Below are positions 29,945-62,347 of a DNA stretch of 64,000 nt, piece after piece. The stretch is from Ancylonema sp. Lineage: Eukaryota. Position 1 is the stretch's first letter, and each line of letters opens with the position of its first letter. The notes under the pieces were generated by a model that ran no database searches, was not told where the DNA came from, and saw nothing but the letters and a program-made list of their open reading frames with translations. The DNA lies in the NCBI GenBank assembly GCA_050230475.1, contig JBFLGF010000110.1, positions 1 through 64,000 of the forward strand, written 5' to 3'. The translations under genes and the position numbers were made by a program.

Positions 29945-30641
29945 GAAAAGCCAACCTGATGTAGGACCTACACGTTTTTCTTTGCATACACCCGGTAAGT
30001 CTGTTTACCGGCCTATACTATAATTCCAGGACTCAAACTGAAAAAACTATGTGCACCACGTCCTCGTTCCTTGAAACTGTGCAATCGTACATGACGCAAG
30101 TGGAAAGCCGAAAGGGCCAGGACATTATGATGGTGCCTTCCACGTTGCGCAAGAGACATCCTCAACATATAACCACGAAAGTCGATGTCAATAAAAAGAA
30201 GACTGACACGCTTATGTACGAAACGTGCAGCAAATGTGTGATAACGATGACGTAGGAGTGCTGCTCTTTCCCTCCACCAGTACGAAGGAATTCCTTCGCA
30301 GTCTCACGCAGGGCGATGCGTCTTATATTTTGTTGTCAGAACAGCAGGGAGTCGGTCGAGTGGTACGGCGAACGTCAGATGACGCCATTGCGTGTCGCCA
30401 GACGGTAACGTGATGCTCCATGTAAGCCACGATGGAGTGACGGCCAATCAGTATCGGCCACGACGACTGAGATGCTGATCGGCTCGTGGGGCACGCAATT
30501 GATTGGCTCGAGCGCCAGACAAACTAGCACATGGGTTCTTTGCCTCGGTGGTTACCTCTGCGCCAATCAGGCCAACCGGGCGGGAGTCGTCTTGCGGCTG
30601 GCCAAAAGCCATCCGGCTTGGCCAGCCGTTGCCTATATGAG

Positions 30642-31454
30642 GGGAGATGTTACGCGCAGACTGGCAACGACTGCGCGCAGACTAAGGGTACCGGCTGGTG
30701 ATTTGGCCGTTCAAAACTTGCCGTCAAACTCTCCCGGTACTACCCGTAAAATCGATGTTGGCGTGAATCTTTGGCAGTATCTCGGTTTATCGTGGCATAA
30801 TTGAGGCTGTACGTGAACCAGCTTCATCCGACCCACGGCCTCTCCCGATTCGCTCTCTTTATTACCTTCCTTGGCAGCCACGATTTCTCCGCATCGAGTG
30901 CATACCCCACCTTTCTTCGAAATTTCACGATGCTTATGTTTCTCTGACATTCTTCTGTATCTTCCGAAAAAAAAAAAAAAAAAAAGGTTTTTAATCCTTC
31001 CTGTTATGCTGTTCGCGCGTGCTTTCTTGCCATAATATTGTTTCATATACTATGCTACATCATGGCGTCAAAATTATTTTTCATTTTTTTTTCCGATATA
31101 ATTTGAAAGTGGGATTACGGAGCGTGTCTCAATTGAGAGAGCGTGTTTTCAATTTGGTGGCATATTCGCTCAGGTCGCTTAAATTGAAGGTCTGCGGATG
31201 ACAATAGCCCGCAGTGCAAGGTCCTCTACTAGCATCAGGGTGCAGTAGAGTCCGAATTGAGTGGAAAAGGAGGCAACCGAACCTCATGCTTCGTTTCGCT
31301 GATGTGGCAATATTGTTACACGTGTGCAGTCTGGGTTATGTGATTAATTTTGACGGCAAGTTTCGAACGGCCAAATCACCAGCCAGTACGAGAATGGCCG
31401 ACTACAGGATTTAGTCTGCGCGCAGTCGTTGCCAGTCTACGCGTAACATCTCCC
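30642..31454. mobile_element. Non-autonomous TIR DNA element (813 bp) with 8-bp TSD
   Basis: TIR GGGAGATGTTACGCG(C/T)AGACTGGCAACGACTGCGCGCAGACTAA plus a second inverted block GCTGGTGATTTGGCCGTTC(A/G)AAACTTGCCGTCAAA. TSD TATATGAG at 30634-30641 and 31455-31462. Confidence 0.93.
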
Positions 31455-31821
31455 TATATGAGCGGGGTCGGAGTTGGCTACCACGTGGCCGCGCGGTAGG
31501 CCGCCACGCGACCGCATGGTGGCCAACCCCGATCGCGCTCGTATAGGTAACGGTTGGCCCAATCGAGTGACTTATGGCCAGCCGCAAGCCAACCCCCACC
31601 CGGTTGGCCTACCCTCACCCGATTGAGATGCGATTGGGCCGGTTGCGGTTGGAATATGAGAAACCAAAAAATGTACGCATAAGAAAAAAACTCTTTGCAT
31701 CTATGCCTAATCTCTCTATTAAAGTTTTTTTTGTTATAGTATGATGCACATAGTTCTTTCTTGGTGTCTTCTTCCAATATTTTTGCAACCATATGTGAGT
31801 AAAAGGTCTATACATGTACCT

Positions 31822-37800: not shown

Positions 37801-38139
37801 CAATCGATCACGACATGACAAGCAATAACACAGCAAAAGTGCAAGCTTGAGATAGAAAGACTGATTACACGATCTTGCATGCAAGTCCACTCTTAGTATA
37901 GTTGAGTGTGATCGACAGAACGTCTAAGACAACATATCGAAACTATCTGAGTCAACACCAATCACAACTAAGCATTATGCCACATCGACTAAAACTTATC
38001 GACACTTATGCTGACTGGCCAGAACTTGTCGACACAATCATTGCTTACAAGTTCGGCCGGCATGCTGAATAACGACAAGAACTCAAACTACAGCAAACGG
38101 ATCGGACAAATCGATATAACAACAAAACTAAAAACTAAC
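31822..38139 (-). mobile_element. Ty1/copia LTR retrotransposon (copia-2), both LTRs present, coding region decayed
   Basis: LTRs 31822-32237 and 37738-38139 (TG..CA); PPT 32238-32247; PBS TGGTATCAGAGC 37725-37736; gag with two CCHC knuckles (CYTCGETGHYSRDC, CKYCGAIGHVEFIC); protease, GAG-pre-integrase, integrase (RSDGGAEF), RT (YVDD), RNase H. TSD candidate TACCT. Confidence 0.97.
36189..37630. mobile_element. Nested 1442-bp solo LTR inserted in copia-2 gag
   Basis: TGACGTGC..GCATGACA termini; 4-bp direct repeat GATC at 36185-36188 and 37631-37634. Removal restores ECLEICKGTE, colinear with ECLEMCKVTE in copia-3. Confidence 0.92.
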
Positions 38140-40334: not shown

Positions 40335-43300
40335 TGTGAGTGCTTTCTTCTGCCATCGATGCAAGAATAAAGCACAACTCTCTCAGACAACTCTTGAATC
40401 GACAAATCACGTCATTACAAACGTTGACACAACAAAAGTGCAAGGTTGAAGTAGAAAGTCTGATTAAGGACTTCAGCATGCAAGCTCAGACCTAGTACAG
40501 TCAATTGTTGCCTGGTCAAAGAATCTGCCGGTATCGAAACTACTTCGTCAATTGCCAATCATATCTAAGCATTCTGCCACATCAACTAGTTCTTATCGAC
40601 ACTTGTGCCAGATGGCCCAGTAATCATTAAAACAAGGACGTCGGCCTGCAGCCGGCCTGCAGCCTGCCAGCAGCCTGCATTTGCTGAATAACGACAAAAC
40701 TAAAGCTAAATTCCCGGATTGCTAAAAAACAGCCCCTAAAAACTAACATTTTCCTTGTTGTGTTCTTCCCCCCTCCCTGGGTACTTTTGTATTCCCCCTC
40801 CAAAATCGATAACCAAAAACGATATCGATTTTACAAACACAAGTCGACATTTATTTTTCATACACAAACCCCACCAGATCACAATTTTTCTGTAACACCT
40901 TGGCAGACACTGCTTTGGTCAGCATATCAGCAGCCTGGTCTTCACTCCGTACAAACTGCAGATTGCTTTTTCTTGGTCACCCTCTCTCGAATGGAATGAT
41001 ACTTGATCTCGATGTGTTTGGGCGCTTGTAAAATAGGATTCTCAACAAGTTTCAAGGAACTCTCATTGTCTCCCAGCAATAGCACACTCCCCCCACCAAT
41101 ACCCAACTCTTTTTGCATCTGGCTCAAATAAATGGCCTCATTTCAGCAGCACTCAATGCCAAGTACTCACTCTTACAGCTCGAGTGTGTGACTGTATCCA
41201 GGAGACCTTTTCCAGCTCACAGCAGCACCTCCACTAAGAAAGACATAGCCAGTTTTCCCCTTCCTAGTGTCGACGTCGTCACCATGACTAGCATCTGAGT
41301 AGCCGATGACTGGCAAATCACCTCCTTTCTTATACATCAGCCCCAAAATTACAGTTCCCTTGAGATATCGCAAAACTCTCTTTACCCCCTCCCAATGCTT
41401 GTCCCCTGACTGCTGACTGTATCGACACAAGGAGTTAACAGCGGCTGCCAGATCAGGTCTTGTTCCGAAAGTGAGATACAGCAAACTGCCCATTGCAGAC
41501 TTGTAGCCCACACCCTCTATTCCAGCAGATTCAGAAGCAGATTCACAGTTTGTAGAAAATTTTACACCCAGCTCAAGAGGAGTAGCAGCAGAATTGCAAT
41601 CTTGCATCCCAAACTTGGTGAGGAGATCCCTGGCATATTTCTCTTGTACCAAAAACACGTTTCCATCAGACTGCCGTCGAATCTCAAGCCCCATCAATAA
41701 TTTTGCTTCCCCCAAGTCTTTCATGTTATACTTCTTTCCCAGCCCTCTTTTCACCCCAAAAATAGCATCCAGCCTGATGCAGAGGAGAAACACATTATCC
41801 ACATAGAGCGCCAAGTAGAGTGCTTCTGGCCCTGCTCCCAGAATATAAAGGTCAAAATCTGAAGCGAGACGATGAAACTGCAAGCTTTTCAGCACGTCGT
41901 CGATGTGCTGATTCCATCCTCTCGGTGCCTGCTTGAGGCCATACAAGCACCTGAGTAGTAGCCACACCAAATCTGCTTCACCAAGCCCACACGTGCCGTC
42001 AGGGGCCTTCATGTACACCTCCTCTTCCAGGGGTGCATGGAGAAAAGCTGTCGTTACATCCATCTGATGCATGTGTAGACCCCTGGAAGCTCCCATGGCA
42101 ACAAGTTGGCGAATGCTCTCAAAACGAACAGTTGGAGAAAAGGTCTGATCGTAGTCCTCTCCCTCTACTTGACTGAACCCCTTAGCCACAACTCTTGCTT
42201 TGTATTTTTCTACAGAACCATCTGCATTGAATTTGATTTTGAACACCCACTTTGACTTCACAACTTTCTTCCCCTTCGGCCTTGACACAAGTCGATAGAC
42301 CTGGTTTTCTTGTAGACTCGTCATTTCTGCAGCCATTGCAGCTTTCCACTCAGCTGCTTGTGGGCTGTTAAGAGCGTCCTCGACAGTCGTTGGTGTCTTT
42401 ATCTCACTTTCCAAGTTGGCAACAAAAGCAGCAACAAATTTGTTGGGATGCATTCCTCTGTTCTCCCTTGCAGATCGACGAATAGGCTCTGGATCATCGA
42501 TAGAAGTTTCTGGAAAGTTGTCGTTCACGCCAAGTGGATTAAAAGGAGTAGCATCATCTGGGTACCATTCTGGACCATCTTCCAGATGATCTTCGTCTGC
42601 ATCGCCTCCACTAGAATTGCTGACAAGTTCTGGAAGATCTGCACTCTGAGGAAGAGGAGATAGCTGTGGCAATGGATTTCCGACAGCATCAGGGATCTCT
42701 TCATCGACAGAATTTGGATCGCCATAGGCAGGTTGCCCACCTCCAGAAATACCCCCTCCGAGACCAACACTACCCACCCCCTCCTGCTCCTTGATCAGCT
42801 GCATCCAGATCTAGCCATGACATTTTTGTTTGTGCAACTGGCTCATGCACTCTTGCCTTCTTGCCAATTTTTTGTCCCCTCCACCAGCTTTGCTTGACAG
42901 ATTCATCGAAGTCTACATGACCAGTGCCAACGTTGTGTACTTTGTTCGTTGCAAGATCCCAGACTCGGTGCAAGGACTGTCGGATTCCCCAACTAACACA
43001 CCAAGCCAAGCCAGTGCACTCATTTTCCCAGCCCGATCTTGTTTCTCCAGTCGCACATAAACTTTGCAGCCGAATGATCGAAGATGATCAATCTTTGGAA
43101 CTTCTCCTGACCACATCTCCTCTGGAGTTTTTGGAAGTCCGCTGACTTGACATCGATTTCTGAGGTATGAAGCTAAGGAGATTGCTTCTGCCCACAGACC
43201 AAGAGGAAGTTGCATGTGCAAAAACATAGAGCGAGCCCTGTTTGCAACGGACGATTCATGCGTTCTGTGATTGCATTGCCTTGAGGAGTGTTTGGCGGAG

Positions 43301-45737
43301 TTGTCTCATGTCTGATGCTTCTGTTTTTTAGCCACTTCTGCAGACCACCATCGATAAACTCTCCTCCTCGATCTGATCTCAGATTTTTAACAAGTTTCCT
43401 AGCTTGTCTTTCCCAGATTGCGATCCATTGCTTCAGACGAGGAGCTGCATCATCCTTTGCTGCGAAGTATTTCCACCCAGGATTTTCGGCTGTATTCATC
43501 GACGAGCACCATGTTGTACACTCCTCCCCCTATTGATGCTGGATTGAACGGCCTTGCCAAGTCCACCGACACTCTTCCTAGGCAGACTTGTTCTCCTGCA
43601 CCACCTTCTCGTCGAGGATGAGGTTTGTCGTGTGCCTTCCCCAGCTTGCACCCTTCACAATTTTGCAGAACTCCTGAGATGCCTCCTTCCAGTCCTCGTA
43701 CAAAGATGTTGTCGTGCCACATTTTTGAGCACTCTCTCATTTGCCATGCCCAAGTCTCGTGTGCAGGAGGTCGATTTCGACTGCAGCTACAACAGCTTCC
43801 CCTTCAGTAAGTTGCTGATGTCGAACCGGTGTGCAGATTAGAGTTTTTCGACCTGTCGATGTTTCTTGCAGAGTGCAGACTTGTTGTCCAAATTTGTTGT
43901 AAACTATAATGATGCCACCAGCTTTTCCACTGCAAGTGTAAGACCACCCTGCTTCTCTGGCTTTCTGACCGCTGAACAAATTAATGCGCATCCCAGGAAT
44001 GTACAAACATTTCTTGAGTGTTACTTCTCCACACTCTCCCTCGGTATTCAGCTCAATTGTTCCCCACTGCTTCACTCGCACACTTCCGACCAGATGATGC
44101 ATGATGACCTCGTGTGGAATGTCTTCGAGGATTTTGAAAAGATTTCTCTGTCCACAAGAATGGTGACTGGAACCATCGTCGAAAAGGAAATCTTTGTCCG
44201 CATCATCATTATCTGCAACATTTCCATCAAAGATTTCAGCGATGATAGCTTCTCCATGACCACAGCTTTCCTCCTCATCGATTTCACCAACGTAAGCTGC
44301 TTGTCTCCCAGTGCGTACCCCCTTTCTTTGCCTTCGTGGAGCTTCGTTTTTCTTGTCGAAACACGTGAATTCCACATGACCAATGGCTCCACAATATCTG
44401 CATTCTTCGTTTTTCTTGGAGCAGTCTCTGCTGTAGTGACCTGTCTCTCCACAAGTATAGCAGGAATGCCCTCCACTTGATCCATTGCCTCCACCTCTGC
44501 CTCCACGCCCACCTCTGATTCCACGCTTATCTGCTGAATACCCCCTGAATGTACCCCTGCCTCCACGATTGTCGATACCACCACCTCTGCCTTGGCTTGA
44601 TTTTTTTTGTTGCGTTGACCACTTAACATAGTTTGCCTCTACAACTAGTGCCTTAGCATCTTTGACATCTTTTTCTTTCTTGTCGTCCAGCTCATCCATT
44701 CCCATCTGCCCCCAGATCCAGCTGATCCCAGGTCTTTCTGTCCTCCATAATACAGCTTCTTCAGCATGCCGTATTTTGTTCTTGACATGCCGGCAAACAA
44801 TGCCATCACTTGATCTTCTGCGTTGACTGGAAATTTTTGATGTACACACTCTCTGATGAGCGACAGAAAAGTATTCTTGATATCTCTGACTGGCATCTTT
44901 TCATCGATCTTGAAAGATTTCAGCTTTTCTTTTGCAATCTGTCGAAGTTCTGGAGACACCTTGTCATACTCCTCTGTCAGATAGTCCCACATCGCCGTTG
45001 GATCTCGTTCAAATTGTTCAAGTGATGTAGCGATGTCGTCACTGACAAATTGAATGAGTAACATGACTGCCTTCTTTGATCTTTTGCGGAAGCTTCTGAC
45101 ATCAAGTGTATACTGCTCCATTTCTGTTTCATTTGTTGGCCACTGTTCATCATCATATCTGGCTGTAACCTCAGTTGGAATAGTCTCTGTTACTTTGCAC
45201 ATCTCAAGGCACTCAACATCATCAAGAGTAGCTGAGGCCTTAGATCTCCATGCTTGAAAGGTAACTTTATCTCCATCCAGAATGCAGTACCGTGCTCTGT
45301 TTCTTCTGCCATCGATGCAAGAATAAAGTTCACTTCTTCTTAATCACAATTCTCTCAGACAACTCTTGAATCGACAGATCACGTCACTACAAACGTTGAC
45401 ACAACAAAAGTGCAAGTTTGAAGTGGAAAGTCTGATTAAGGAATTCAGCATGCAAGCTCAGACCTAGTACAGTCGATTGCTGTCTGGTCAAAGAATCTGC
45501 CGGTATCGAAACTACTTCGTCAATTGCCAATCATATCTAAGCATTCTGCCACATCAACTAGTTCTTATCGACACTTGTGCCAGATGGCCAAGTAATCATT
45601 AAAACAAGGACGTCGGCCTGCAGCCGGCTGCAGCCTGCCAGCAGCCTGCATTTGCTGAATAACGACAAAACTAAAGCTAAATTCCCGGATTGCTAAAAAC
45701 AGCCCCTAAAAACTAACATTTTCCTTGTTGTGTTCTT
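40335..45737 (-). mobile_element. Ty1/copia LTR retrotransposon (copia-3), near full length, close relative of copia-2
   Basis: LTRs 40335-40767 and ~45300-45737, differing by roughly ten substitutions plus small indels by eye; PPT 40768-40778; gag-PR-INT-RT-RH order with frameshifts (ORFs 44645-45202, 43737-44849, 43450-43740, 43173-43499, 42913-43227, 41173-42804). PBS partly deleted; RT motif mutated to YVDN. Confidence 0.97.
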
Positions 45738-48503: not shown

Positions 48504-50499
48504 GGCGTACAACAGTGTACAATGACGTTGTCAAGAACGCAAGTAGTACTTGCTGTTCTACATATGTAGGCACCCAGAGCGCGTCCAAGTATCCTCCTTC
48601 CTGCAGCGACCCAGGCACTGTGAACGCAGATGGGAACAGTTAAGGCGGAAGTGGCGGTGGACTGATGTTAAAGATTGGCACGCATTCGCTGACTCGAAGG
48701 TGCGCAGGCGGTATCGTTCGCCCGATACGCGTTAGGTGAGTTTTTTTGAAGACGCTTGCTGTGTATTTTGCAGCATTTTACAGAAACGCGGAAAGATTCT
48801 GCCCTCTGCCATATCGGCCACGCGGCACACAATTGGGTAATACGACAGAACGGCGCCACGAGAGACACACAGGATTCTACGAGATTTTCCGGACGTTTTC
48901 GAGGCACGGCTGGCCAAGCGACAGTCTGTATCGAATCGGACGGCGACTAGGGGATCACTCCCCAATTTTGAATCCTCAGTCGGCGGAAAGTTTTGTATAG
49001 GCTGCAGTGGCGAAATTCGTCCCAATGCCCTCCCAGCACTGGGGAAACTGCCACGTGCCTATCGCGCTGCCCTTCCGCGGTCGTCTGCATTTCGGCGCAA
49101 ACCGATGCCTTCCACGATCCCTGCGGAGGCATGGTTGCCTAGTATTGCGTACTACGCGTTGTAGACGGGTTTGTAAAACCTCTACCTCACATTAGTTTCC
49201 AAAGCTGGAGATTCGTGGCGACAACTATGCTAGGGATGTGACGGTATTAAAACGGTAGAGGCATTTGTTGCGCCGGGGATTGCATAAATGGTCGAATGTG
49301 GACCGGTAAAAAATAATTTTGCATGTCACTTATGTACTTCCTAGCGACGCGGAGGTCCTGCAGAGTTCGCGTAAAATACAATACCCCTCTAACCGCGGGT
49401 CAAACTCAGAACGCTGCTACTCATTGATGAGTTGGAATTGCATTATAAAAAATAATATATTTTTGTTCACCGTCTACAGATGTCGATAACTTGATATCTG
49501 ATTATTTGTGCAGGTTGTGACTGATCGAGAACTTCTTATTCATAAGTAACAAGTTGATTCCGCCCCTGTCTAGACTGGAATCACTCAGCCATATCACAAT
49601 GACATGTACAACCCGAGAGAGTAACTAAGTGAGAGGGAGGAAGTGCAAAATGTGTTATACAACGGTCCCCCCATTCTACATGTACCTTTTCATACTTTGA
49701 AGTGGTACATCCTCTATGTACTATGCATTGGTTATGCTATGTTCAATACAAAACGTGGTACTTAATTTCGTGTTTGACATGCGTCAATTTCAACGACTTT
49801 CTTTGCGTCGTTCTATATGTAAAAATCCATAACTTTGCGTTATCTACGACGACAACTTTCTTTGCGTCAATTTCAACGACTTCCTTTGTGCATCGAGAGG
49901 GCAAAACGCTTCTGGTCGACACAAAGATCCTCGAACGCCATTGTGCCGGAAACGAAGGCGGTGGTGCCGAGAGAGACATATAACTCATCCCCGATGTCGT
50001 CATCGTAACGGACCACTTGGGTCTTGTCACCCCACACCTGTCAACTAGACGGGTGACACGTGTCAGCCAACCCGCTTTCATGGGCATCCACGTCGAGTGG
50101 ATTGGACATGCATCGAATTTCGTCAATCTGAGGTGAGCATAATCAGGGTATGGCGTAGTTTATAATCACCAGAAGTACTCAACATCATCAAGCAAGAACA
50201 AAACCAAAGTCATCCAAGAGGGGTGCAGGTCATACAGGGGTGCGTCAATGTGCTACATGTAAAACCGCGAAGTACTCAACATCATCAAGCATGACGTACC
50301 TATAGAGATCGATGACGTCACTACACGTGCGGCTAGTAAGGCAACCTCAAACATGCTAAGGACACATGCGGACACGTGTGGAAAGAGTTCCGAACACGTT
50401 CCGAACAACATAGAAAGCAAGCGCTAACTACTTGCATCACAACACACATATCATCACACCACACCACAACTCACATACCTAGCGAGACTACAAACATGC

Positions 50500-53400
50500 A
50501 ATTTGGTTGAGGAGGGACTTGAAGGCGCCCCTGAACTCAGACCCCTGATCTGACACCACCTCAGCTGGGGCTCCAAACCTGCAGTACAGAGTTAAGGAAG
50601 GCGTAGGCGACGGTGTCTGCGGACTTGTCGACGCAGGGCACCAACTCGACCCACTTGGTGAAGTGTTCGATCATCACTAGCACGTAGCGGTTGCCTCGAC
50701 TGGTAGTGGGGAAGGGGCCAGCGAAGTCGATGCCCCGGCGGTGCCCAAGACCTCGGATGGGAAGGGGTTGAAGTTGCTGCTGGGGGTCCTTGAAGGCTGC
50801 TTTGGCGCGCGCACAGGACTGGCACCCCTTTGGCACCCCTTTCACGTCTACGCCCATCCCCTCCCAGTAGGCCTTATGGAGGAACTTGTGAATGCGCAGC
50901 TCCCCAAAGTGGCCCATCTCTGTATGGACCCTCATGATGAGGGAGACACGCTCAGCAGGGGGAGGCACAATCAGCAGCACCCCCCCCGGAAAGACTTTAT
51001 AGACGTGCCCCTTCAGCCACCTGTACCCCAAGGCCCGCTTGCAGACGCGGTCCTTGTCCCTGGCAGAGGCGCCAACAGCATGGCGATGGTGCTTCAGCAG
51101 GTCCAGAACCGGCTGGTCACCCTAGATGTCGCCTGCTGGTGGGGAAGGGGCAGAGGAAGAGGAAGGAAGGGTAGAGGACAGGGGAGGACGCTGTGGAATA
51201 GTGGCAGTAGCAGGTGCTGCCTGGTGGAAGGCGAAGTAGGTGGCAGGGCTGCTGGCAAAGTCCTCAGCTCCCTGGTAGGCCACCCCCGCAGCGGTACTCC
51301 AGAGCACCCCAAGCTCCTCTTGTTGATCCCTAAAGGCGTCTTCTGTAGACGGCAGGGGGAATCGGTTGCAGCAGTCTGCGACCACGTTCTCCACCCCTGG
51401 CTTATGTTGGATCTCGAACTCGCACTCCTAGAGCAGGAGTGACCACCGCGCCAAACGCCCCGTCAACTTGGAGGTCTTCATCATCCACTTGAGCGCAGCG
51501 TGGTTTGTGAGGAGGAGGAACTTGGAGCCGATGAGGTAGTGGCGGAAGTGCTGCACGGCCCACACGACCGCCAGTGACTCTCCGTCATAGTTGCTGTAGT
51601 TGCGCTCAGCGGCGTTGCAGCTCCTCGAGGCGTACGCTACCACAAACGCCTGCCCCCCCGCATCCAGCTCGCTGAGGACAGCGCCCATGCCGTCCTGGCT
51701 CCAGTCAGTCTACAAGCGGAAGGGCTTGGCGTAGTCGGGACGCCTCAGCACCGGGTCCGAGCAGAGCAGTCGCTTCAGGTGGTCAACAACTGCTTGTTCC
51801 ACTTCTCCCCAGCGTCAGGGGGAGTTTTTCTTCAGCAGCCTGTTGAGAGGGGCTGCAATGGTGGAGAAGGCAGGGACGAACAACCTGTAGTAGGAGAAGA
51901 GGCCCAGCAGCGCACGCAGCCCAGAGAGGTCAGAGGGGGTCTGCATATCGCGGATGGCTTGCATCTTTTCCAGCTGGGGGCGGATCCCAAAGTGGTTAAC
52001 CCGGTGCCTCAGGAAGTCCACCTCCTCAGCGCCGAAAAGGCACTTGCCAGGATGGATATTCAGGCCCTACTCCCGGAGGCGTCTGAAGACGATCTCGAGG
52101 TGCTTCAGGTGCTCTGCAAAGGAAGACGACCAGATGATGATGTCGTCGATGTAGCACCTCGCAAAGGGCAGCCCCGCCAGCACCTGGTCCATGAGGCGCT
52201 GGAAGAAGGGGGGAGCGTTCTTAAGGCCGAAGGGAACCACGTTCCACTCCCAAAGTTGACGTCGCATCCCCCAGAACGCAGTCTTGCACTTTTCGTGCTC
52301 AGCCACTGGCACCTGGTGGTAGCCAGACTTAAGGTCGAGTTTGGAGAAGATCACCGCCCCCTGCAGCTCCTGGAAGATGTCCTCAATCGCAGGAAGGGGG
52401 TAGCGATTCAGGTCGGTGTAGCCGTTGATTAGGCCTGTAATCACCGCAGTGCCGCAGATATGTGTAGGCTCCATCCTCGTCGCGCTTACGCACCACCACC
52501 GTGGCACTGGCGTACTTGGACTGGTGGGAGGGCTTGATGAGGCCTTGCTGCTCCAGCTTGCTGCAGTTCTCTCCCACGAAGTCCCACTCCGTCTTGCCCA
52601 GCTTGTGAGCGTGAGAGAAGATAGGGCGGTCTGTAGTCAGGGGGATCTCTATGGGCGCACCAGTGAAGCCCCCTAGATCAGCCGTCGAGTACGCGAAGTC
52701 AGCTTTGTGGCCTTCGAGGAAGTCCACCAGCTTGAGCTTCTCCGCCTTAGTGAGCCCCCCCCCCAGCTTCCAAGCACCCTCGGTGTCTAGAGCTGCCATG
52801 AAGGGTTGCTGGTCATGCAACATGTCCCGCAGCGGCTGCCCCCTCTTGGTCTGCTCGTGCTCAAGGAGCCGGATCCAGTCCTCCACCATGAGAGCCGCCT
52901 TGTAGAGGTGCAGGCGCTCTTCAGGACCAGTGTCGTAGTGTTGCAGCTACTCCGGGTCATAGAAGAACTCCTCGGAGGCATCGTCAAAGTGCAGCGCATG
53001 GAACTCAACGGGGAGTGAGAGCGCTGAAGTCTCCATGCTGTCCAGAAACCACTCCCTATTTCCCCCCTCCCTCAGACCACACACCTCCAGTGTTTGGCTG
53101 AGAGTGGGGTCTGATCCCTACGGGATGGAGTGGAAGGCCAGAATCGCACCGGACCACTGGATGACGTGGCGGTCGATAGTCTAGCCCAGCATGTGGTGAC
53201 GGTCGGCACCTGACACACATGGCCCTCCATCCGTGTGGCCGACGTCGTAGCCCAACAGAATCTCCTTCTCCCGCAAACTGGGAGACTCCCACTTCTGCGG
53301 TGTGTCGTTGATGAGCTGCCCCGGCCCTGGACGCCCATCCTTTCTGCGCTGGAAGGCGTGGCTGAGGGGGTAGCTGACAATGGTGGGGAGGACCTTCCTG

Positions 53401-56400
53401 TCCTGGCCCTTGACGTTGCAGAGTCGAAACGGAGGTTGATCACAGGAGAAGACAGGGGCTGGATAGTGCTCGTCATCGAGGTAGACCTCCAGCATGGGAA
53501 GAGGGTGGTCGTCTGGCAGCAGGCTGGCCAGTTCCTCTGGAGCCAGCATGTTCGTCTAGAAGCGACTCCATCTGTGGGAAAGGGATCCGAGCTGGGGAGC
53601 GTCGATGCAGATCGAGGGCTCTCCCAAGAAGGCTCGGATGAGCTTGTCCGCGTCCAGCACCGCCTTGCCTGCGTCTGCGTCGATGCAATCGTTCTCAAGG
53701 AGGTAGATGACCGGCCATCCTCCCTGCTCCGTCTGGCACCAGTTGATGATGCGGCAGAGGTCGAGGAAGACTAGAAAGCAAATGTCCTTATGGCCCCGTC
53801 GTGGTCCTGCTCTGCTGATCGCTTGGCAGGGGAAGCCAGGTGCCACCATATCGATGGGGCCACGCTTGGCTGTAAGGTTAACCAGGTTCATTGCGCTGAT
53901 CTTGCGGATGTCTTGCGCCAGCCGTTTTTCGAACTCCTCGATAATAGAAGCAGGGAGCAGGTGTGGATGGAGGGCGTGCTGCTTGGCCACCACAGTACGA
54001 GCCACGACATGGACATCTCGAGAGATGTCCACAAAGGTGTAAGTTTTGATGGGGATGCCGTTGTTGACGCACAACATCAAGTTGGGGCAGCCCGAGCCCC
54101 CCATGAAGTCGACCACGTGGACGCCCTCCTTCAGCTGCTGCACCGTCAGTTGCTGGATGTCCTGGCAGATAGGACTGACCAGATTGAGTTCTGGACTAGT
54201 CCACACTACGGGTGCAGACTTCGGCTTCTTCGATTGCTTCTTGGCTGAAGACTTCAGCTTGCCGATCCAGGAGCGCCGTTGCCGAGCCTCCCAGAAGGAG
54301 TTGGTGATGGCCGCCCTCTGGGATAGCTTGGCAAGTGTTTGGCTCTCCAGAGACCAGTTGCCATCTGGGAGAGGGGGTCCCGGCTTTGGGATGATGCCCT
54401 TCTTGCGTCTCGCCCTCTCCTCAACAGCTTTGTTGCGGTCCAGCTCAGCTCTCAGGTCCGACACGGGTGGGATGACCGCCAACACTAAGTCATGTTGACG
54501 AGTGAAGAGCTCAGGCTCGGGTCCAATGAGCCCACATGTACGGTTACTGTCTAGATAGGAGCGCAGCTGCTCCACGTGCAAGAGCACCGTGTCAGCCATG
54601 TCGCTAAGGTCTGGGACAGACATGATGGAGAAGGAAGGGATGGAGCGCATCCAGCAGCCCAAGTAGAGGTGAGCCAGCACTGTGCGCAGCATCTGTCGTC
54701 TGCTCTCCCGAAAGGCCTCCCGAGCATGCCATTGGGCCTCCAGCCACTCCAGTGCTGCCACTTGTCCGCGGAGAGATTCTGGGTCCTGAGGTCCACCTAG
54801 GAAGCCCTCGAAGTTGTTGGCATCCTCAGGGATCGGGAATGTGGAAGGGGGGATGTAAGTGTCAATCGGCACTCTTGCCGTCCTCTCCCCTTGCCGCCCC
54901 ACTCTTGGCAAATCTCTAGGTAGTTCTGACGCAGGTTGATGGAGTTGACCACTCGGTTGACGAAGTGGGAACCTAGCAGCACGTCGTAAGTCTCGGCGTT
55001 GTCCACCAATATGTGTAGATGCGCCACGGCTTCGTCCACTGTCCCAGGGAGAAGTCGAATGGCCACCGTCTTCTTGGTCACGCCTCTGCATCTGGCCGTG
55101 TTGCCATCTACAGTGAGGTAGGGGATGCCTGCAGCCAGATCTGCGTCTGTAATGCCCATCCTCTCCGCGTGCTTCTTCCCTATCATAACGTAGTTGGGCC
55201 CCGTGTCCACAACTACGTTTTCTGCTCCCATGCCGTCAAGGGTAAGCACATTTGCTGCATTCGGCAGCGTCATGTTTTTGTAGCAGATGATGTCCCGAAG
55301 GTTGGGAGGGATGATGGAAGCGAAGGTCGGATCCAGGAGTAGGGACTGCAGTTCCGGCGTGAAGGTCGAGAAGTCCTTGGCGAAGGACAAAGGAAGTGCC
55401 TGGAGGGGGTGTAAAAGAATTGTGTCCCTTGCTGGCCTCCCGAGACTGGGTATGTGGCGTTAACAGGTCTTGCACAAGAGCTGGATCTGGCCTCACCAGA
55501 TCCCAGCTGAAATTCCCCCCCTCAAGCTCGAACACGTTAGCTGCGTCATTGGCAACAACTGCAGACGCGTTCAGCAACACCCTCTTGATCGCTTCCCTGG
55601 CTTGCTCCAAGTGTTGCTCAGCCTCCTTGGCAGCTTCCATGGCCCGCTGCACAACCTCCAAGAGTGGAATTGAAGGCAGCTTCTGGGCTGGCGGCTCGTT
55701 CTCGTTGGTAGTGCCAGGCTCCAGGTCTCCGAATGGCCGCGTCTCAAAGATGCGTGGCATTTTCAAGGCCCTATCTGGCGCCCTGCCATAATCTTGACCC
55801 GTTGCAGGGCCTCTGCGAGCTGAAGCTACCACCCCAGAGCTGGGTGCAGTCACAGATGCAGAACTTGGAAAAGTTGGAGTGCGGGCTAAAGCTGGAGCTG
55901 GGGGAGGTTCTGGAGAAGAAACCCCAGGTGGCTCTGGTTCCGGTTCCCCGGAGGTGCTCGGATCAACAGAGATGGAAGGAGTTGGCTGCCTGGCCAGTCA
56001 CTCTCCCATTCTGGAAGCAGACTCGGACAAGAGTGGTCCGGTCTCTTCGTATCTGATCGGCTCCTCCGTCGCCGGATCCTAGGCCACTTTTTTGCCTACT
56101 GCTTCCCTGGCACCTAATCTGGAAGATCGCCTCAGATTTAGGTCTTCAGCAGCGGCTTGCAGCTTCAAGGCCGACTTGAGAGGCAGTTGGCACCCTTTAA
56201 GAAAAGGGTCGTCCTCCACCACATAGTCGTGGTTAAGGTAGCGAGGCTCAGGCTCTTCCAACTCATCTATGTGCTACATCACAGTGCCTTGTTGAGCTTG
56301 TAGAGCATGCTGGGTGGCTTGGGAGGAAGCCGGGGAGTATCCAGCCTGCTTTTGCTAGCACCGCGTTTCGGTGTGGTGCATCTTCTAACAGATGGTGCAC

Positions 56401-57800
56401 CTGGCACCCTTCGTCCGATGTGCCTCCGTGAGGTTCCACCTCTGCGGCGGTGCAGACCCAGCGCTGCTTGCAGCTCTCGAGGCAGCAGATGTAGAAGGGG
56501 GCTACTGCGTCTGAGACTGCTGCTAACCACCTATTCTAAGAGCTGCATGAGATTGGCCAGCTCCAGATGATGTCGGCTTAGACGGGCAATGCCGCATCAG
56601 ATGATCTGTCTGGCCGCACGTGTGGCAGGCACGGTCGTCTCGGCCAGAGTAGGCAGTAGTGGGAGATGGAGTAGAGACCGAGGGTAGGTTGGAGCGAGTG
56701 GGAGCAGAGTTTTGCCTCCTAGATGGCTGCTGCTGCTGCTGCTGGCCGGAGTTCCCTTGCAAAATCTGCACCCTTCTCGCCACGGGCTCCAGAATCAAGT
56801 TGGTGACGTTGTTGTTGGCCGGATCCAACCCGAAGTTACGGAACTCAGCCGTCCTGGCCTGCGGCGTATTCTCCGCTGCAGCAACGATGGTGCGAATCTG
56901 ATCGCGACCCATGGTTGGCAAGCCTGCAGCCAGCCGTCTCGCCTCCTCAGCACGGTAGTTAGCGTCCATCTCAATCTTGACAACTCTAGGTAGAGCGTTG
57001 TAGAACCGCAGCGTCCCCTCCCTCGGGATGGTCCGTCCAAACTGCTCACAAGCAGTGGCATCTTCATCGATCTTCGTGAAGATCATGTGAACGGAGTCCT
57101 CTGGGTCCGCTTGAAAGTTACGCAGCCTGTTGAAGGCTTCGGTAACGTCGCTGATGAACCGCAGACGGATGGCAACGAAGAAAGATTCGATGTCGTCCGG
57201 TTCATCGGCTAGCGGAGGCTGAGGAGGGTGTGCTGGGTTCGGGAGGGTTTGCCTCCTCCCGTCGATAGGTCATCCTGACTCTGCGGGCGGCAGCTCTATC
57301 CGCTTGCCGCTGATGATCCGCGTGGCCGGCTGGAAAAACCGCAGTCCTTTCGGTGACGTGGCTGGTGAGAACTTTCCTAGCATCCCGCCCGAGGAAAGGA
57401 ACCAAGTCGTAGAGGAGGAATTCAATCTCCCCATATCCCTTTTTGATGCGGGCCGGACGCATCGCGATCTTATAGTAGAGACCGCGAGCATCGATGAAAA
57501 AATCTGTCTGGTGGGAGCCTATCTCCCCATTGTACTGAGCGATGGAGTCGCCCATGTCTTCAGAGTCGCCTTCTAGAATCTGTATGTTGAGCAGAACCAC
57601 CCGCGGAGCTAGCGGTGATGTGGTCTCTTCTGTCTCGTCAGCTGGGGAGCCGGACCGCGAACATGCGGGTCCTAACGCCAGAGTGTTATCTGATAAACTA
57701 CGACCTAGACGGCCACCTCCACTACGTCGCCATGACATTCAGCAGTCATGTGCGCAGCGGGTGGGGGTCGGGCTTAGTTAGACCCAGCTGATAGATGCAA
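50500..57800 (-). mobile_element. Degenerate Ty3/gypsy retrotransposon with embedded C5-DNA methyltransferase; 3'-truncated within integrase
   Basis: Order gag (CCHC CHTCGQTDHLMRHC ~56585-56630), protease (VVVDTGPNY ~55190-55220), DNMT (54130-53150), RT (KLDLKSGYHQ, VPFGLKNAP, YIDD ~52140-52153), RNase H (TDWS..AYASR..ERNY), integrase (H-H-C-C, GIDFAGP, SDQGSEF). RT-RH-INT order indicates Ty3/gypsy. LTR limits not resolved. Confidence 0.95.
53150..54130 (-). pseudogene. DNMT3/DRM-like C5-cytosine methyltransferase domain of the Ty3/gypsy pol (two in-frame stops)
   Basis: Motif I VVDFMGGSG (~54090-54117), II YTFVDI, III QDIRKI, IV GFPCQ (53823-53837), VI YLLEN (~53691-53705), VIII SHRWSRF*TN (~53550-53579), IX EKEILLGYDVGHT, X RHHMLG*TID, in canonical I-X order. 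Confidence 0.93.
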
Positions 57801-58214
57801 CTTTTCTGATAAACTATCCAAGGCAATGGAGACCTTGGTTGCCCACATGCGCCGTGAGCTGGCGATTTTTTCGGCTAATGGGTTCCTGCCAACCTCTAAG
57901 CACTACTCAACGCAGCGGTATCAATACACAAAGTAATGCAAGACACGTGCGAGGCGATGATAGAAGTTCCGGGAAGTTATCAGAAAAGTTAGGGTACAAC
58001 GCTATTCCTATTCCGTGAGAGGTTGTTATGAGAAGTGGGAGGAATCGTTTTTATAAACAAAGAATGTGAGTCTACATAATGGTGAACATGTTGATTCTGA
58101 ATCATGGATTTGAAACGCGGTAACGCTTTTACTTTTCAAACTGCGATATTCGTATTGGGAGGGGTAACTAATTGTCCTCATCATTCTTCTAAATAGTGCC
58201 AAAAGGTGGGCTCC

Positions 58215-58700
58215 GTACAACGCGGCAGAAAGTGTGACTACTATGGAAAGATAGGACACATGGAAGCAGCGTGCATCAGCAAGCGCAACGACATTCAGTC
58301 CAAGAATGAGCAAGAGCGACGACAGGATGATAGCCGAGGACATGGAAGAAACTATCAACAACAATCAACGCAAGAGAAGGAGATTCAACAGTTCGAGGAG
58401 GAGAAGGAAAGCATTTATGAGGGTTATGTGCTGACATAATTAGTAGCCGAGATAGCCCTCGACGAATCGAAAAACTCGGAGGCCATTCGATCAAAAGAAG
58501 TGATCCCCGACGGACTGCATCGACAGGAGGATGAAGGGGAGCAGAAGCTCTGGCTCCTGGACTCGGGATCCACGCATCACGTGTGCACCGATGTGGAATC
58601 CTTCCACAACTTGGAGTGCGTAGAGAAAGACACCAATCCGAGATTCGTGACAGGGACTTTGAAAGTTACCCATGTAAGGTCACCAATGGTGGAGCTTGAC
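58215..58700 (+). mobile_element. Ty1/copia gag-protease remnant
   Basis: Decayed knuckle CDYYGKIGHMEAAC and protease motif WLLDSGSTHHVC. Confidence 0.8.
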
Positions 58701-58789
58701 AAGCAGTTCAATTTTCTGAATGTCCGTAGTCCACGTCACTATCTCTACCGGACGGCCGGTCTAAGGCCTACATGTGCGGACATGAGTAA

Positions 58790-59576
58790 TGACGTGCCAG
58801 ATAGGATCGATAGGGTTCAGGTTCGTTGATGACGTAATCAATTGATGTATGACGTCATAAGGTAGTCCATCGACATGAATTGGTGAATGTCGATATCGAT
58901 GACTTTGTAAGTGTAACTGGGCATCTGCCCTAACTAAGGAGTTTGGTACGCTTGACTCGCACAGTGATTGTAAACAATCACACAAACGACGGCAGGAACG
59001 TCGCCTTGACTCGGAAACTCTCTCACTGCGGGCAAGATGACAACGCGATAGCTCTACAATATTCTAAATGCAGAGTAATGCGATACAATAGTACAGTAAG
59101 TACAGCGATAGCTCTCGATCAGCGAGCAGTTATTTATGTGTAAGTCTATAATGCTTGTAATCATTAGCAAAACGACTGTGAGTCTGCACACCGACTTGCG
59201 TCGATGTAAATGTGTGAGTCACGAAGCTGCGTAGCAGGCAACGATGGTAAAGTACTGAGAGCGATAGCTCGATCAACCAAACGATGATAATAGCAAGTGG
59301 CAAGATGCACATGCAACAGATTGCAAGCAAAGCAAAGCCACACACACAAGATACAATTTACAATAGAGACGAAGTGGAATGCAAGTCTCTTCAGCGTTAG
59401 ATTCAGCGAAAGCTGAATTCTGAGTTCGAAATACAAAGGTTGTATATTCAAACTCTACAGACGACGCTAGACGCGTGTCGATCTACAATTCAATCTCAGG
59501 AAATATGCCTCGCGCGCAAATGTCTTATCTACAATATCTATCGTCGGATATTCATCGACGGCTAACAATTATGACA
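58790..59576. mobile_element. Possible solo LTR or LTR fragment related to the 36189 insertion
   Basis: Starts TGACGTGCCAGAT (compare TGACGTGCAAGAT at 36189); candidate end ATGACA at 59576; flanks AGTAA/AGTCA match 4 of 5. Right boundary uncertain. Confidence 0.4.
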
Positions 59577-60083
59577 AGTCATCACAAGTTGATTGCTGAC
59601 TAGTACAAAGGTGCCACGTCGGATCGACGGATAACAAATGCTAAACAATCTCTAATTCAAATATTGAGCGGGGGCGGAGGCTGACAACTGGAGCTCGGGA
59701 GCGGGACCGGCGAGCGGGGCGGAAGTTGTAGTGCGGCGGAACTCTTGATTTGGCGCGGCGCAGACGTGAGATTTAATATAGGGAGAGATTTAGTAGATAT
59801 TAGGGGTAAAATAGTTAACGATCTCAGTTGTCGTGATAGTAAAGGTGGAACCATAAAAATATGGATATGTTTCCCACGCGTAAAATATTTGCCGTATCGG
59901 AACCGGTTTTGATGTATCGCGGAGAAAAAATGCCGTAGAGACGTACTCGTATCCGTATCGGCGTAACCGTCGGCGTATCGGGGGGTACCTAGCCGTACCA
60001 GTTTTACTACGCATTTCACTATGTATCATGACCGTTATAAGATTGTTATTAAAAAAAAAAAAAAACACCAACCAAATCATATT

Positions 60084-60454
60084 CATAGATGGGTCAGCAC
60101 CGTGCGCAATATTTGCGCACGCGTGCGGCACGCGTGCCGCACCGGGACAATTTCCGTAATCGACTTTCGGACGTCGAAATTTGACCAAGTAGTGAGCAGT
60201 GACCATTTTGCAATGTAAGTAGTTCGATATAACGTCTTAGGCCCTAAATTGAATACTGCCACGTTGTAACCGGTTCACCAAATACATTTCATGAATTTGG
60301 AAACATCCTCGCACCCCTGGGGTGTAGGAAGTACCCCCCCCCCCCCCCGGGTAATAATAATATAATTTTAACGCCTATAGGTCAGCACCGTGCGCGAGAT
60401 TTGCGCACGCGTGCGGAACATGTGCGGGACGCGCACTTCAAAGACCCATCTATG
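60084..60454. mobile_element. hAT-like MITE (371 bp)
   Basis: 12-bp perfect TIR CATAGATGGGTC/GACCCATCTATG; 8-bp TSD ATCATATT/ATCATGTT (one mismatch); absent from the opposite arm of the palindrome. Confidence 0.88.
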
Positions 60455-62347
60455 ATCATGTTCAATAAATCCTTGATTCCCAACGGGTAGAGCCCGACTA
60501 TTCGGATCAAATGAAAGTCCGATAATAATGATAATCCAAATCACTACAAAATCACAAAATAATGATTTTGAAGTTAAATATAAAAACGCATCGCGTAAAA
60601 TAAATGTGATATTTATTGTAGAACTCCTCGAATTTCATCGAGAGTCGTCACGATATAATGAGTGCAAAGTTCACCTCGGAAAATCTATAAAATCATACTG
60701 TGACATCAATGTGATTTTCAATTCTTCTTACTATACAACTAAACAAATATAATTGAAAGTCATTGAAAGTTACACTTTGGGTGTGGATTCTTTATTTTTG
60801 ACTCGTCATAACAAAAAGAATATCAATCTCCTCCTACATATCCAAAGGTAATTCTTCAAAACATAACAATATACCATCGTAACATCTACAATCCAACTCA
60901 ATAAATATTATTCAATGCTAAAAACAACCAATAGAATAACAAATCTACCCAAGTAACCAATCTACCCGACAATACACTGTGTTACGTAACCTATGGCGCC
61001 AAACAGTGAAGTATACAACCCCTTGCTCATTGTAGAGTACCGTCAAATTCTTTTGAGATGTATAGTGTCCTAGACGACTACCTCATTTCCAATCGCGATT
61101 TTTCTCGCTTTTGTAACGGCACCGACAGTCTCGACAACACCGGTGACAAGGTCATTCATATGGTGTCACATGTTGAACAGGTTCTTCGACGCTGTCTCCA
61201 GGTGTTTCACAAGGAGAGGTTCACAATCTTTTGCAATGTTAACCATCGCGTAAAACACCCATGTCCCTTTAGCAATCACTCCAACCGCGACCAAGGAAAC
61301 CAAGGCGGCCCCTTGAACCACCTTATTCACTCTCGCCACGATGACCACAACAAAGTATGCGATCGTTAACAGCTTGCAACCAAAAACTACTCGCTTCACC
61401 GTGACTCGGTGTGCTCCGCCGTTCCCCCTGTCACAACGGCGGAGCACACCGAGTCACAATAAAACGAGTAGTTCTTGGTCGCAAGTTGTTAAATATCGCG
61501 TACTTTGTTGCGATCATCGTCACGGGATTGAATAAGGTGGCACTAGTGGCCGCCATGGTTTCTTTGGTCGCGGCTGGAGTGAGTGCTACAAGGAGATGGG
61601 TCCTCTACGCAATGGTTTTCTTTGCAAAAGACTGCGAACTCCTCTATGTTAAGCACTTGGAGATAGCGTCGAAAACCCTGTTCAACATGCAAAACCATGC
61701 CGATGACCATGCCAACGGTGTCCTCGCTACTCTCAATGACAATACTAAAGCGCGTAAAAAATGAATTGGAGAGAAGATTGTGGTATGGGACACCGCCCAA
61801 CTCAAAAGAATTCGACGGTACTCTACAGTAGGCAAGGGGTTGTACAAAATCACTGTTTTACGCCATTGGTTACGTAACAAAGTGTATTGTCGGGTAGATT
61901 GGTTGCTCGGGCAGATTTATTACTCTATTGGTTGTTTTTTTCATTGATTTATATTTTTTCTGGTGGATTGCAGATGTTACGATGGTTTTTTTTTTGGTTA
62001 CGAGGAGTTCCTTTTGGATATGTACAGGGATATTGATTCTGTTATTTTTACCATGAGTCATAGTTAGAGATTCTACACCCAAAGTGTAAATTTGTAAACG
62101 CATTGATGAATTGACTTTCGATGGTATTGAAGAGTTGTACACCAGGAATTGAAGATCACATTCATGCTACATCATGAATTTGTAGATTTTTCAGTTTGAA
62201 CTTTGTATTTATTATATTGTGACGTTTTTTGTTAAAATTTGAGGAGTTCTTCAAAAAATATCACATTTATTTTACGTGATGTATTAAAACAAATCAACTT
62301 CAAAATCATTGTATCGTGATTTTATAGTGAATTGGAATATCATTATA

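What the first reader, a model, noticed from the sequence alone, without database searches (positions are those of the whole stretch)
50500..57800. Ty3/gypsy retrotransposon carrying its own C5-cytosine DNA methyltransferase between protease and RT
Seen: a full-length C5-MTase domain (DFMGGSG, GFPCQ, LLEN, HRxxRF[W]TN, EKEILLGY..HT, RHHMLG[Q]T) lies on the pol strand after the DTG protease. It runs in one frame from ~54900 into the start of RT (~52430), interrupted only by four TAG stops, with one frameshift near 54900 separating it from the protease. Known: the motif VIII-X wording resembles DNMT3/DRM enzymes, and the I-X order is unpermuted, as in DNMT3 and unlike DRM. DNMT-carrying retrotransposons have been reported in charophytes and dinoflagellates (de Mendoza et al. 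2018), so the class is not new, but it is rare and this family or host may be undescribed. Inference: a polyprotein-delivered MTase could methylate the element's cDNA or insertion site. This copy is dead.
Basis: partly seen in the sequence, partly recalled or inferred. Interest (0 to 1): 0.93.

Follow-up and report, generated by a model that had tools for sequence, protein, structure and literature searches.

The report
Algal retrotransposon with Gag-linked DNA methyltransferase
A broken copy of a common algal jumping gene carries its own DNMT3-like DNA-methylating enzyme just before a conserved stop codon and a predicted RNA hairpin, so the element likely makes this enzyme in bulk with its capsid protein and would use it to mark its own new DNA copies.

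Summary
Confirmed. This is a dead copy of a multi-copy Ty3/gypsy family (roughly 65-95 times single-copy depth) in a probably zygnematophyte alga. It has an integral, unpermuted DNMT3-like domain between protease and RT. Relatives carry protease, linker and DNMT in one ORF.

It sits exactly at the DNMT C-terminus, where seven close relatives (36-81% identical) and a Klebsormidium nitens protein also stop. It is followed by an 8-nt spacer and the element's most stable predicted hairpin, the layout of MLV readthrough.

Likely model: Gag-PR-DNMT is made in bulk and RT-RNase H-integrase by leaky readthrough. The DNMT would then be an abundant particle protein that methylates the cDNA. Splicing and internal initiation are rivals.

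The kind is known (KnitGypsy-Dnmt3, 2018). New here are a separate clade, the conserved stop with its hairpin, and the family's breadth: 614 relatives, including Closterium and Scenedesmus, with two DNMT positions in Pol that track two RT lineages. Activity and readthrough are untested.

The parts
57813..58004 (-). Repeat A (5' terminal block; outer edge approximate)
   Evidence: Depth far above the single-copy flank; unique contig starts at 57975; joined to repeat B in 6 contigs of run X1 and also in X2-X4. No TSD found.
55400..57555 (-). gag, likely ATG at 57555, two CCHC zinc knuckles (near 56627 and 56399); one frameshift near 57238 and seven in-frame stops
   Evidence: Pfam zf-CCHC; knuckle scan; stops; length difference from most other copies near 57238
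54893..55357 (-). Aspartic protease (DTG), set off by a frameshift on each side in this copy
   Evidence: PF13650/PF13975; 66% identical to P0002; frames
54144..54890 (-). PR-DNMT linker, about 250 codons
   Evidence: 46% identical to P0244, in which it is in frame with both neighbours
53121..54143 (-). DNMT3-like C5 cytosine methyltransferase, motifs I-X in order; catalytic Cys and motif VI Glu-Asn kept; two decay stops and a replaced motif VIII arginine
   Evidence: PF00145; PDB profile ranks DNMT3A first; model pLDDT 90, Foldseek top hits DNMT3A/B; motif table
53118..53120 (-). TAG at the DNMT C-terminus, likely the natural end of ORF1 (Gag-PR-DNMT)
   Evidence: Seven close relatives end at offset -1 to +1 and the K. 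nitens group at +4
53064..53117 (-). 8-nt purine-rich spacer (53117-53110) and predicted 46-nt stem-loop (53109-53064); candidate readthrough signal
   Evidence: -28.7 kcal/mol, z -2.6, 1 of 200 shuffles as good; none of 345 tiled windows folds lower
52790..53063 (-). DNMT-RT linker in the DNMT frame; first in-frame ATG at about 53036; one further TAG at 52949
51338..52787 (-). Reverse transcriptase and RNase H; frameshift near 52430 and several stops
   Evidence: PF00078, PF17917; tblastn with full-length relatives
50509..51130 (-). Integrase (H2C2 finger and first half of the core), truncated
   Evidence: PF17921; rve positions 11-57 of 102; match to P0246 ends inside its integrase
50292..50508 (-). 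Repeat B (TG at 50500 to CA at 50292), the 3' terminus; very high copy; preceded by a poly-G tract in other copies
   Evidence: Depth about 80,000-145,000 against 131 in the flank; mixed flanks beyond 50292; loose ends at 50508

Best explanation
This is a dead copy of a multi-copy algal Ty3/gypsy family that carries an integral DNMT3-like cytosine methyltransferase between protease and RT; the enzyme likely ends the Gag-protease ORF at a conserved UAG, RT-RNase H-integrase are likely made by occasional readthrough helped by a predicted hairpin, and the abundant enzyme would methylate the element's cDNA in the particle. Shown: domain identity and fold, position, presence across the family, PR-linker-DNMT in one ORF in relatives, the shared stop position, and joint inheritance of DNMT and RT. 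Inferred: (a) the stop is programmed, about 0.9; (b) Pol is made by readthrough rather than by splicing or internal initiation, about 0.55; (c) the protease frees the DNMT inside the particle at Gag-like copy number; (d) it methylates new cDNA so that copies arrive marked, as camouflage or self-restraint, about 0.6. This copy itself cannot work.
For: Domain: PF00145 above cut-off; profile scores DNMT3A 82 bits, DRM 50-60, M.HhaI 41, DNMT2 35, with no DNMT1 among 57 matches; fold. Integral: P0002 and P0244 have protease, linker and DNMT in one ORF; identity to P0244 is PR 67%, linker 46%, DNMT 66%. Contig depth over the DNMT (10,500-13,000) equals that over gag and PR (8,700-12,200) against about 135 in the flank (rough). 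dN/dS of the DNMT among related loci is 0.14-0.31 in the 6 of 12 pairs that could be computed. Catalytic Cys, Glu and both Arg are kept in 99-100% of 146 relatives. RT and DNMT tree distances correlate (Mantel r 0.65, best of 500 permutations 0.20). Stop: P0089, P0090, P0097, P0180, P0211, P0215 and P0231 end at -1 to +1; K. nitens KFL_013780020 (Gag-PR-DNMT) and its group end at +4; 10 of 27 PR-first proteins but 1 of 79 RH-DNMT-INT proteins end within 8 residues. Hairpin: z -2.6 after this TAG against -0.4, +0.5 and +0.4 after the other three; lowest energy and third-lowest z among 345 windows. The frame continues into RT. MLV uses UAG, 8 nt and a structure for about 5% readthrough (PMC8310308, passages).
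Against: No DNA downstream of the stop was available for any relative that stops there, so conservation and covariation of the hairpin are untested. None of the 43 PR-first loci fetched stops exactly at the domain end (nearest -3 and +11), and other PR-first families fuse DNMT to RT in frame (P0192, P0251), so a stop is not required. This copy has 15 other in-frame stops, 13 of them TAG. Same-family fragments P0243 and P0088 end at two of the decay stops, so P0231 alone proves nothing. Only three of the seven close relatives were long enough for trees, and none is shown to be linked to an RT. In longer windows the best fold also pairs the stop itself, and no pseudoknot was tested. CpG observed/expected (0.65) is no lower than in two neighbouring copia elements (0.52, 0.56) or the host CSE1 gene (0.67). 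The K. nitens domain showed no activity in yeast, which the authors call inconclusive (PMC5890265).
Confidence: 0.58

Rival explanations
1. The stop is programmed, but Pol is reached by Ogre-like partial splicing or by initiation at the ATG 28 codons downstream, not by readthrough. The outcome, an excess of Gag-PR-DNMT, is the same.
For: A GT overlaps the stop, frame-keeping AG acceptors lie 66 and 84 nt on, and the downstream ATG has a purine at -3 and G at +4 (sequence). [quoted passage not shown]
Against: The base before that GT is C, whereas the 7 host CSE1 donors read by eye all have G; the host introns seen are 250-730 nt long. The interval is open in the DNMT frame and has the 8-nt spacer and hairpin layout.
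Confidence: 0.25
2. One reading: one Gag-Pol ORF (PR-DNMT-RT), with all four TAGs being decay.
For: Single-ORF PR-DNMT-RT-RH-INT proteins exist (P0192, P0246, P0251). TAG stops are common in this copy.
Against: The stop falls at offset 0 of the domain end, where relatives of 36-42% identity also stop. With about one stop per 145 codons, a hit within one codon has roughly a 2% chance. The strongest hairpin of the element follows it.
Confidence: 0.1
3. The DNMT is kept for a target other than the element's own cDNA: insertion-site chromatin, competing elements or viruses, or binding without methyl transfer.
For: No extra CpG loss in the element. Many relatives add a PHD finger after the integrase, which points to chromatin. 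The K. nitens domain was inactive in yeast.
Against: Catalytic residues are almost invariant in 146 relatives. Delivery on the Gag polyprotein places the enzyme where cDNA is made (inference). The related SymbioDIRS-Dnmt3 domains methylate CG de novo (PMC5890265).
Confidence: 0.3
4. A one-off insertion of a host DNMT3 retrocopy into a dead element.
For: None found.
Against: The same layout occurs in P0002, P0244, Closterium and Klebsormidium proteins and 43 of 80 loci; depth is even across the domain; the trees are congruent.
Confidence: 0.01

Closest known systems
KnitGypsy-Dnmt3 of Klebsormidium nitens (de Mendoza et al. 2018, PMC5890265; parts 1-4 of 7 read, plus passages; figures and main supplement not seen)
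   Same: Ty3/gypsy domains, intronless unpermuted Dnmt3-type domain, streptophyte alga, probably DIRS-like split repeats. The K. nitens protein KFL_013780020 is Gag-knuckle-PR-DNMT and also ends just after the domain.
   Different: Only 25% identical in the DNMT and in a separate clade; different host; longer PR-DNMT linker. The text I read places the DNMT in the Pol ORF and mentions no stop or recoding signal.
SymbioDIRS-Dnmt3 (Symbiodinium; same paper)
   Same: Dnmt3-type domain in a retrotransposon polyprotein; A-coding-B-A-B repeats; shown to methylate CG de novo in yeast.
   Different: DIRS class with a tyrosine recombinase; this element has a protease and a DDE integrase.
Murine leukemia virus gag-pol readthrough (PMC8310308, passages)
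   Same: In-frame UAG, 8-nt purine-rich spacer, then RNA structure, upstream of RT.
   Different: MLV stops before the protease and needs a pseudoknot. Here the stop follows PR and DNMT, only a hairpin is predicted, and nothing is measured.
Ogre elements (PMC6317226, passages)
   Same: First ORF holds Gag and protease; RT-RH-INT is separate and made at a lower level.
   Different: Ogre uses a roughly 274-bp intron and has no DNMT.
DNMT3A/DNMT3B catalytic domains
   Same: Best sequence and fold matches (E 4.5e-22; Foldseek E 3e-17, TM 0.64/0.76).
   Different: About 20% identity; no PWWP or ADD; sequence specificity unknown.

Membership tests
C5 cytosine methyltransferase, DNMT3 type | PF00145 match and motifs I-X in unpermuted order | tested here: met
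C5 cytosine methyltransferase, DNMT3 type | Closer to DNMT3 than to DRM, DNMT1, DNMT2 or bacterial enzymes | tested here: met
   Profile ranking and Foldseek; viral and bacterial MTases match only partly and fall outside in the tree. No tree with host DNMT3 was built.
C5 cytosine methyltransferase, DNMT3 type | Catalytic residues (Cys IV, Glu VI, two Arg VIII) | tested here: inconclusive
   Kept in 99-100% of 146 relatives; this copy keeps Cys, Glu and the first Arg, but the second Arg is replaced and two stops interrupt the domain
C5 cytosine methyltransferase, DNMT3 type | De novo methylation activity | not testable with these tools
   No assay
Ty3/gypsy LTR retrotransposon | Gag, PR, RT, RH, INT in that order | tested here: met
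Ty3/gypsy LTR retrotransposon | Two LTRs, tRNA primer site, PPT, TSD | tested here: not met
   No LTR pair or TSD in this truncated copy; no primer site seen after A; a poly-G tract precedes B in other copies. Relatives have split repeats instead.
KnitGypsy-Dnmt3 kind | Intronless Dnmt3 domain built into a gypsy polyprotein | tested here: met
KnitGypsy-Dnmt3 kind | DIRS-like repeats (A-coding-B-A-B) | tested here: inconclusive
   Complete in 5 of 23 PR-first loci of 9 kb or more and partial in 4. In this family, A precedes the coding region, B is terminal, and A is joined to B in other copies, but the internal B-A was not seen and the poly-G lies at a different junction than in those loci.
KnitGypsy-Dnmt3 kind | Purifying selection on the DNMT | tested here: met
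   Protein level for this family (DNMT 66%, PR 67%, linker 46%); dN/dS 0.14-0.31 in related loci only
KnitGypsy-Dnmt3 family proper | Same clade as the K. nitens DNMT | tested here: not met
   25% identity and separate clades; a union of the two is not rejected (p-AU 0.45)
MLV-type readthrough signal | In-frame UAG, 8-nt spacer, downstream structure | tested here: met
   (prediction only)
MLV-type readthrough signal | Pseudoknot | not tested
   Only nested folds were computed
MLV-type readthrough signal | Measured readthrough product | not testable with these tools
   No assay

The most novel reading that the evidence does not exclude
An ancient green-lineage superfamily of DNMT3-bearing Ty3 elements tunes the dose of its methyltransferase by where it puts it. 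This clade and the Klebsormidium clade make it the last domain of Gag-PR, ended by a UAG with an MLV-like readthrough hairpin, so each particle holds it at capsid stoichiometry and pre-methylates its cDNA. Other lineages fused it into Pol or moved it between RNase H and integrase.
Probability: 0.35. Interest if true: 0.82.

Novelty: new variant of a known kind. Interest (0 to 1): 0.62.

Why it matters
Why retrotransposons carry the enzyme that silences them has been open since 2018. A conserved stop right after the DNMT makes a sharp prediction: the enzyme is an abundant particle protein, not a trace part of Pol. Reporter assays, particle proteomics and cDNA methylation can test that. It would also add a readthrough case between DNMT and RT in an algal LTR element. 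The survey widens the class from one Klebsormidium family to Closterium, Scenedesmus and many environmental elements with two DNMT positions, which affects DNMT3 counts in algal genome annotation. I found no report of the stop, of the two positions or of these hosts in searches. These cover open-access text only, and Fig. 4c and the main supplement of the 2018 paper could not be seen.

Tried and rejected
No host genome is held, so copies could not be listed. No RNA holder was listed among the sequencing runs.

Scans for close relatives with the two-sequence alignment found nothing in metagenome or viral contigs; the broad profile found nothing in viral contigs. Scans with the Klebsormidium-type alignment in viral and prokaryote contigs gave only partial matches to ordinary C5 MTases (best E 8e-13), so no DNA after the stop was obtained for any relative.

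The read tables showed 40 of 1494 differences, none at the four TAGs, so they say nothing on which stops are private. A TSD scan over A starts 57990-58019 and B ends 50284-50299 found no match of 4-6 bp. CpG depletion as a sign of self-methylation was uninformative.

Order of events is unresolved. With a prokaryote/virus outgroup this clade branches first (98, 88), but one clade of all PR-first DNMTs is not rejected (p-AU 0.33), and host DNMT3 was not in the tree (P0002 was labelled with the stop group there although its end is unknown). Gao et al. 2003 on gag-pol recoding was not held. Bacterial origin and DRM-type permutation were rejected.
Full report
Observation. The minus strand from 57555 to 50509 holds gag, protease, RT, RNase H and a truncated integrase. 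Between protease and RT, one frame carries C5-methyltransferase motifs I to X in order, with TAG at 53558, 53183, 53120 and 52949. PF00145 scores 27 bits against a cut-off of 22. A 22-sequence profile ranks DNMT3A first (82 bits), then DRM (50-60), M.HhaI (41) and DNMT2 (35), with no DNMT1 among 57 matches. The model folded with X at the stops has pLDDT 90 and matches DNMT3A/B best. The copy is dead: five frameshifts, 15 further in-frame stops between 57236 and 50584, a replaced motif VIII arginine and a cut integrase.

Host. No genome is held. The neighbouring exportin-2 gene is closest to Closterium (59.6%) and groups with it and one unnamed sequence at 95 in a quick tree of 31 rows, outside land plants and Chara. 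Klebsormidium, Coleochaete and Mesostigma were not identified in that tree, so 'zygnematophyte alga' is likely, not shown.

The domain is part of the family. P0002 and P0244 have protease, linker and DNMT in one ORF, and P0002 also includes sequence upstream of the protease. Identity to P0244 is 67% in the protease, 46% in the linker and 66% in the DNMT. In run X1, contig depth is about 135 on unique flanks, 8,700-12,200 over gag and protease and 10,500-13,000 over the DNMT. The tool warns that this is no copy number; I use it only to show a multi-copy family with no dip at the domain.

Breadth. A full HMMER scan gave 614 representatives at E 0.001 or better, of which 150 were listed. Of the 132 rows with 230 or more residues of domain, 17 have the DNMT after the protease (two are this copy and P0002), 77 have it between RNase H and integrase, and 38 are too short to tell. 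The 77 lie in one clade (99) that excludes all 17. Named members are Closterium (PR-first), K. nitens KFL_013780020 (Gag-knuckle-PR-DNMT) and Scenedesmus (after RNase H). Of 80 loci kept from 227, 43 are PR-first, 34 after RNase H and 3 unclear. After thinning 108 elements with both domains to 70, the RT-RNase H tree splits the 9 PR-first from the 61 others at 98. The DNMT tree gives the same split with low support (17), and tree distances correlate at r 0.65. DNMT dN/dS is 0.14-0.31 in 6 of 12 locus pairs; 5 were saturated and 1 near-identical. The two positions therefore mark two lineages. Which came first is unresolved.

The stop at 53120. It lies at offset 0 of the domain end. Of 144 proteins whose match reaches the last 10 profile positions, 10 of 27 PR-first, 12 of 38 unplaced and 1 of 79 after-RNase H proteins end within 8 residues. 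The seven closest of these, at 36-81% identity, end at -1 to +1, and the Klebsormidium group ends at +4. P0244, P0088 and P0145 stop 12-21 residues short and fell outside that filter. P0088 and P0243 end at two of this copy's other stops, so shared decay exists and the 81% fragment is not independent; the weight rests on the 36-42% relatives. This clade and the Klebsormidium clade are separate. Other PR-first families run on into RT, and none of the 43 loci stops exactly there.

What follows the stop. After UAG come 8 unpaired bases and a 46-nt stem-loop of -28.7 kcal/mol (z -2.6; 1 of 200 shuffles as good). The other three TAGs give z -0.4, +0.5 and +0.4. Of 345 tiled 60-nt windows, none folds lower and two have a lower z. 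Longer windows add an outer helix that includes the stop. The frame continues into RT. MLV reads through a UAG followed by 8 nt and a pseudoknot at about 5% (PMC8310308, passages). Ogre separates Gag-PR from RT by a partly spliced intron (PMC6317226, passages). A weak donor overlaps this stop, with in-frame acceptors 66 and 84 nt on, and a well-placed ATG lies 28 codons downstream, so splicing and internal initiation stay open. All three routes give more DNMT than RT.

Ends. The window has no LTR pair. A 209-bp TG...CA block (B, 50500-50292) of very high depth ends the element, and a block A (about 58004-57813) precedes gag. Six contigs join A to B across a poly-G tract. Five of 23 long PR-first loci show A-coding-B-A-B and four more show part of it, the layout stated for KnitGypsy-Dnmt3 (PMC5890265, Fig. 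4 legend). This copy is most simply such an element that lost everything from mid-integrase to its last B (inference). In those loci the poly-G precedes the first B rather than lying between A and B, so the match is not exact. No TSD was found.

Mechanism. Shown: identity, position, family-wide presence, constraint and the shared stop. Inferred: Gag-PR-DNMT is the major product; readthrough supplies Pol; the protease releases the DNMT in the particle; it methylates the new cDNA, which integrates already marked. For this last step, related DIRS-borne Dnmt3 domains methylate CG in yeast, while the Klebsormidium one did not, which the authors call inconclusive. CpG content gives no support.

Literature seen. 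PMC5890265: parts 1-4 of 7, passages, and a term search of three supplements; figures and the main supplement were not available and may show the ORF layout. PMC11244446, PMC12344493, PMC9940879, PMC8310308, PMC6317226, PMC10952607 and PMC6338049: passages only. An earlier unchecked note of this scan on a moss element (e1-7304403) agrees on the layout and the split repeats.

Verdict. Real, and a new variant of a known kind. It works like KnitGypsy-Dnmt3 but is a separate family. The added value is the conserved ORF end with a candidate readthrough signal, and the two-position survey. Interest 0.62.

Noticed in passing
P0101/P0239 (Scenedesmus sp. PABB004 pol), P0091, L001, L010 and others: Most relatives are PR-RT-RH-DNMT-INT-PHD in one intact ORF: 77 of 132 tree rows and 34 of 80 loci, forming one clade in the DNMT and RT trees. 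This shows DNMT3-gypsy elements in a chlorophyte.
   Followed up: partly
L002:5630-14954, L031, L051, L078, L007: Decayed PR-DNMT-RT-RH-INT-PHD elements with A-coding-PPT-B-A-B repeats and no evident tRNA primer site after A; how they prime reverse transcription is unexplained.
   Followed up: partly
window 13160-18896 (+): Host exportin-2/CSE1 gene, 8 exons, 59.6% identical to Closterium; it groups with Closterium in a quick tree.
   Followed up: yes
window about 5200-6800 (+): Exon-like ORF resembling a cyclophilin (motif recalled, not searched).
   Followed up: no
window about 20000-23200, 31820-38130, 40335-45730: Three related decayed copia elements with LTR pairs 93-99% alike.
   Followed up: no
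window 58440-58829 (+) and 58816-60417: A copia pol fragment, then a repeat at up to about 3000 times single-copy depth, next to the element's 5' end.
   Followed up: no
window 60525-62346: Long foldback: nested inverted arms about 80% complementary with 11 nt at the centre.
   Followed up: no
window 30569-31610; 1118-1907; 27280-27460: A MITE-like inverted repeat, an AT microsatellite and a 12-bp tandem array.
   Followed up: no
L081:10001-10465: A viral-contig C5 MTase scores 67.5 bits with the retrotransposon DNMT profile, well above the other viral and bacterial hits (43 or less), and branches nearest the ingroup on a long branch.
   Followed up: no
window 57236-50584 (-): 14 of the 16 in-frame stops on this path are TAG and none is TAA, and transitions dominate among copies; this fits decay by deamination of host-methylated cytosines (inference).
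   Followed up: partly
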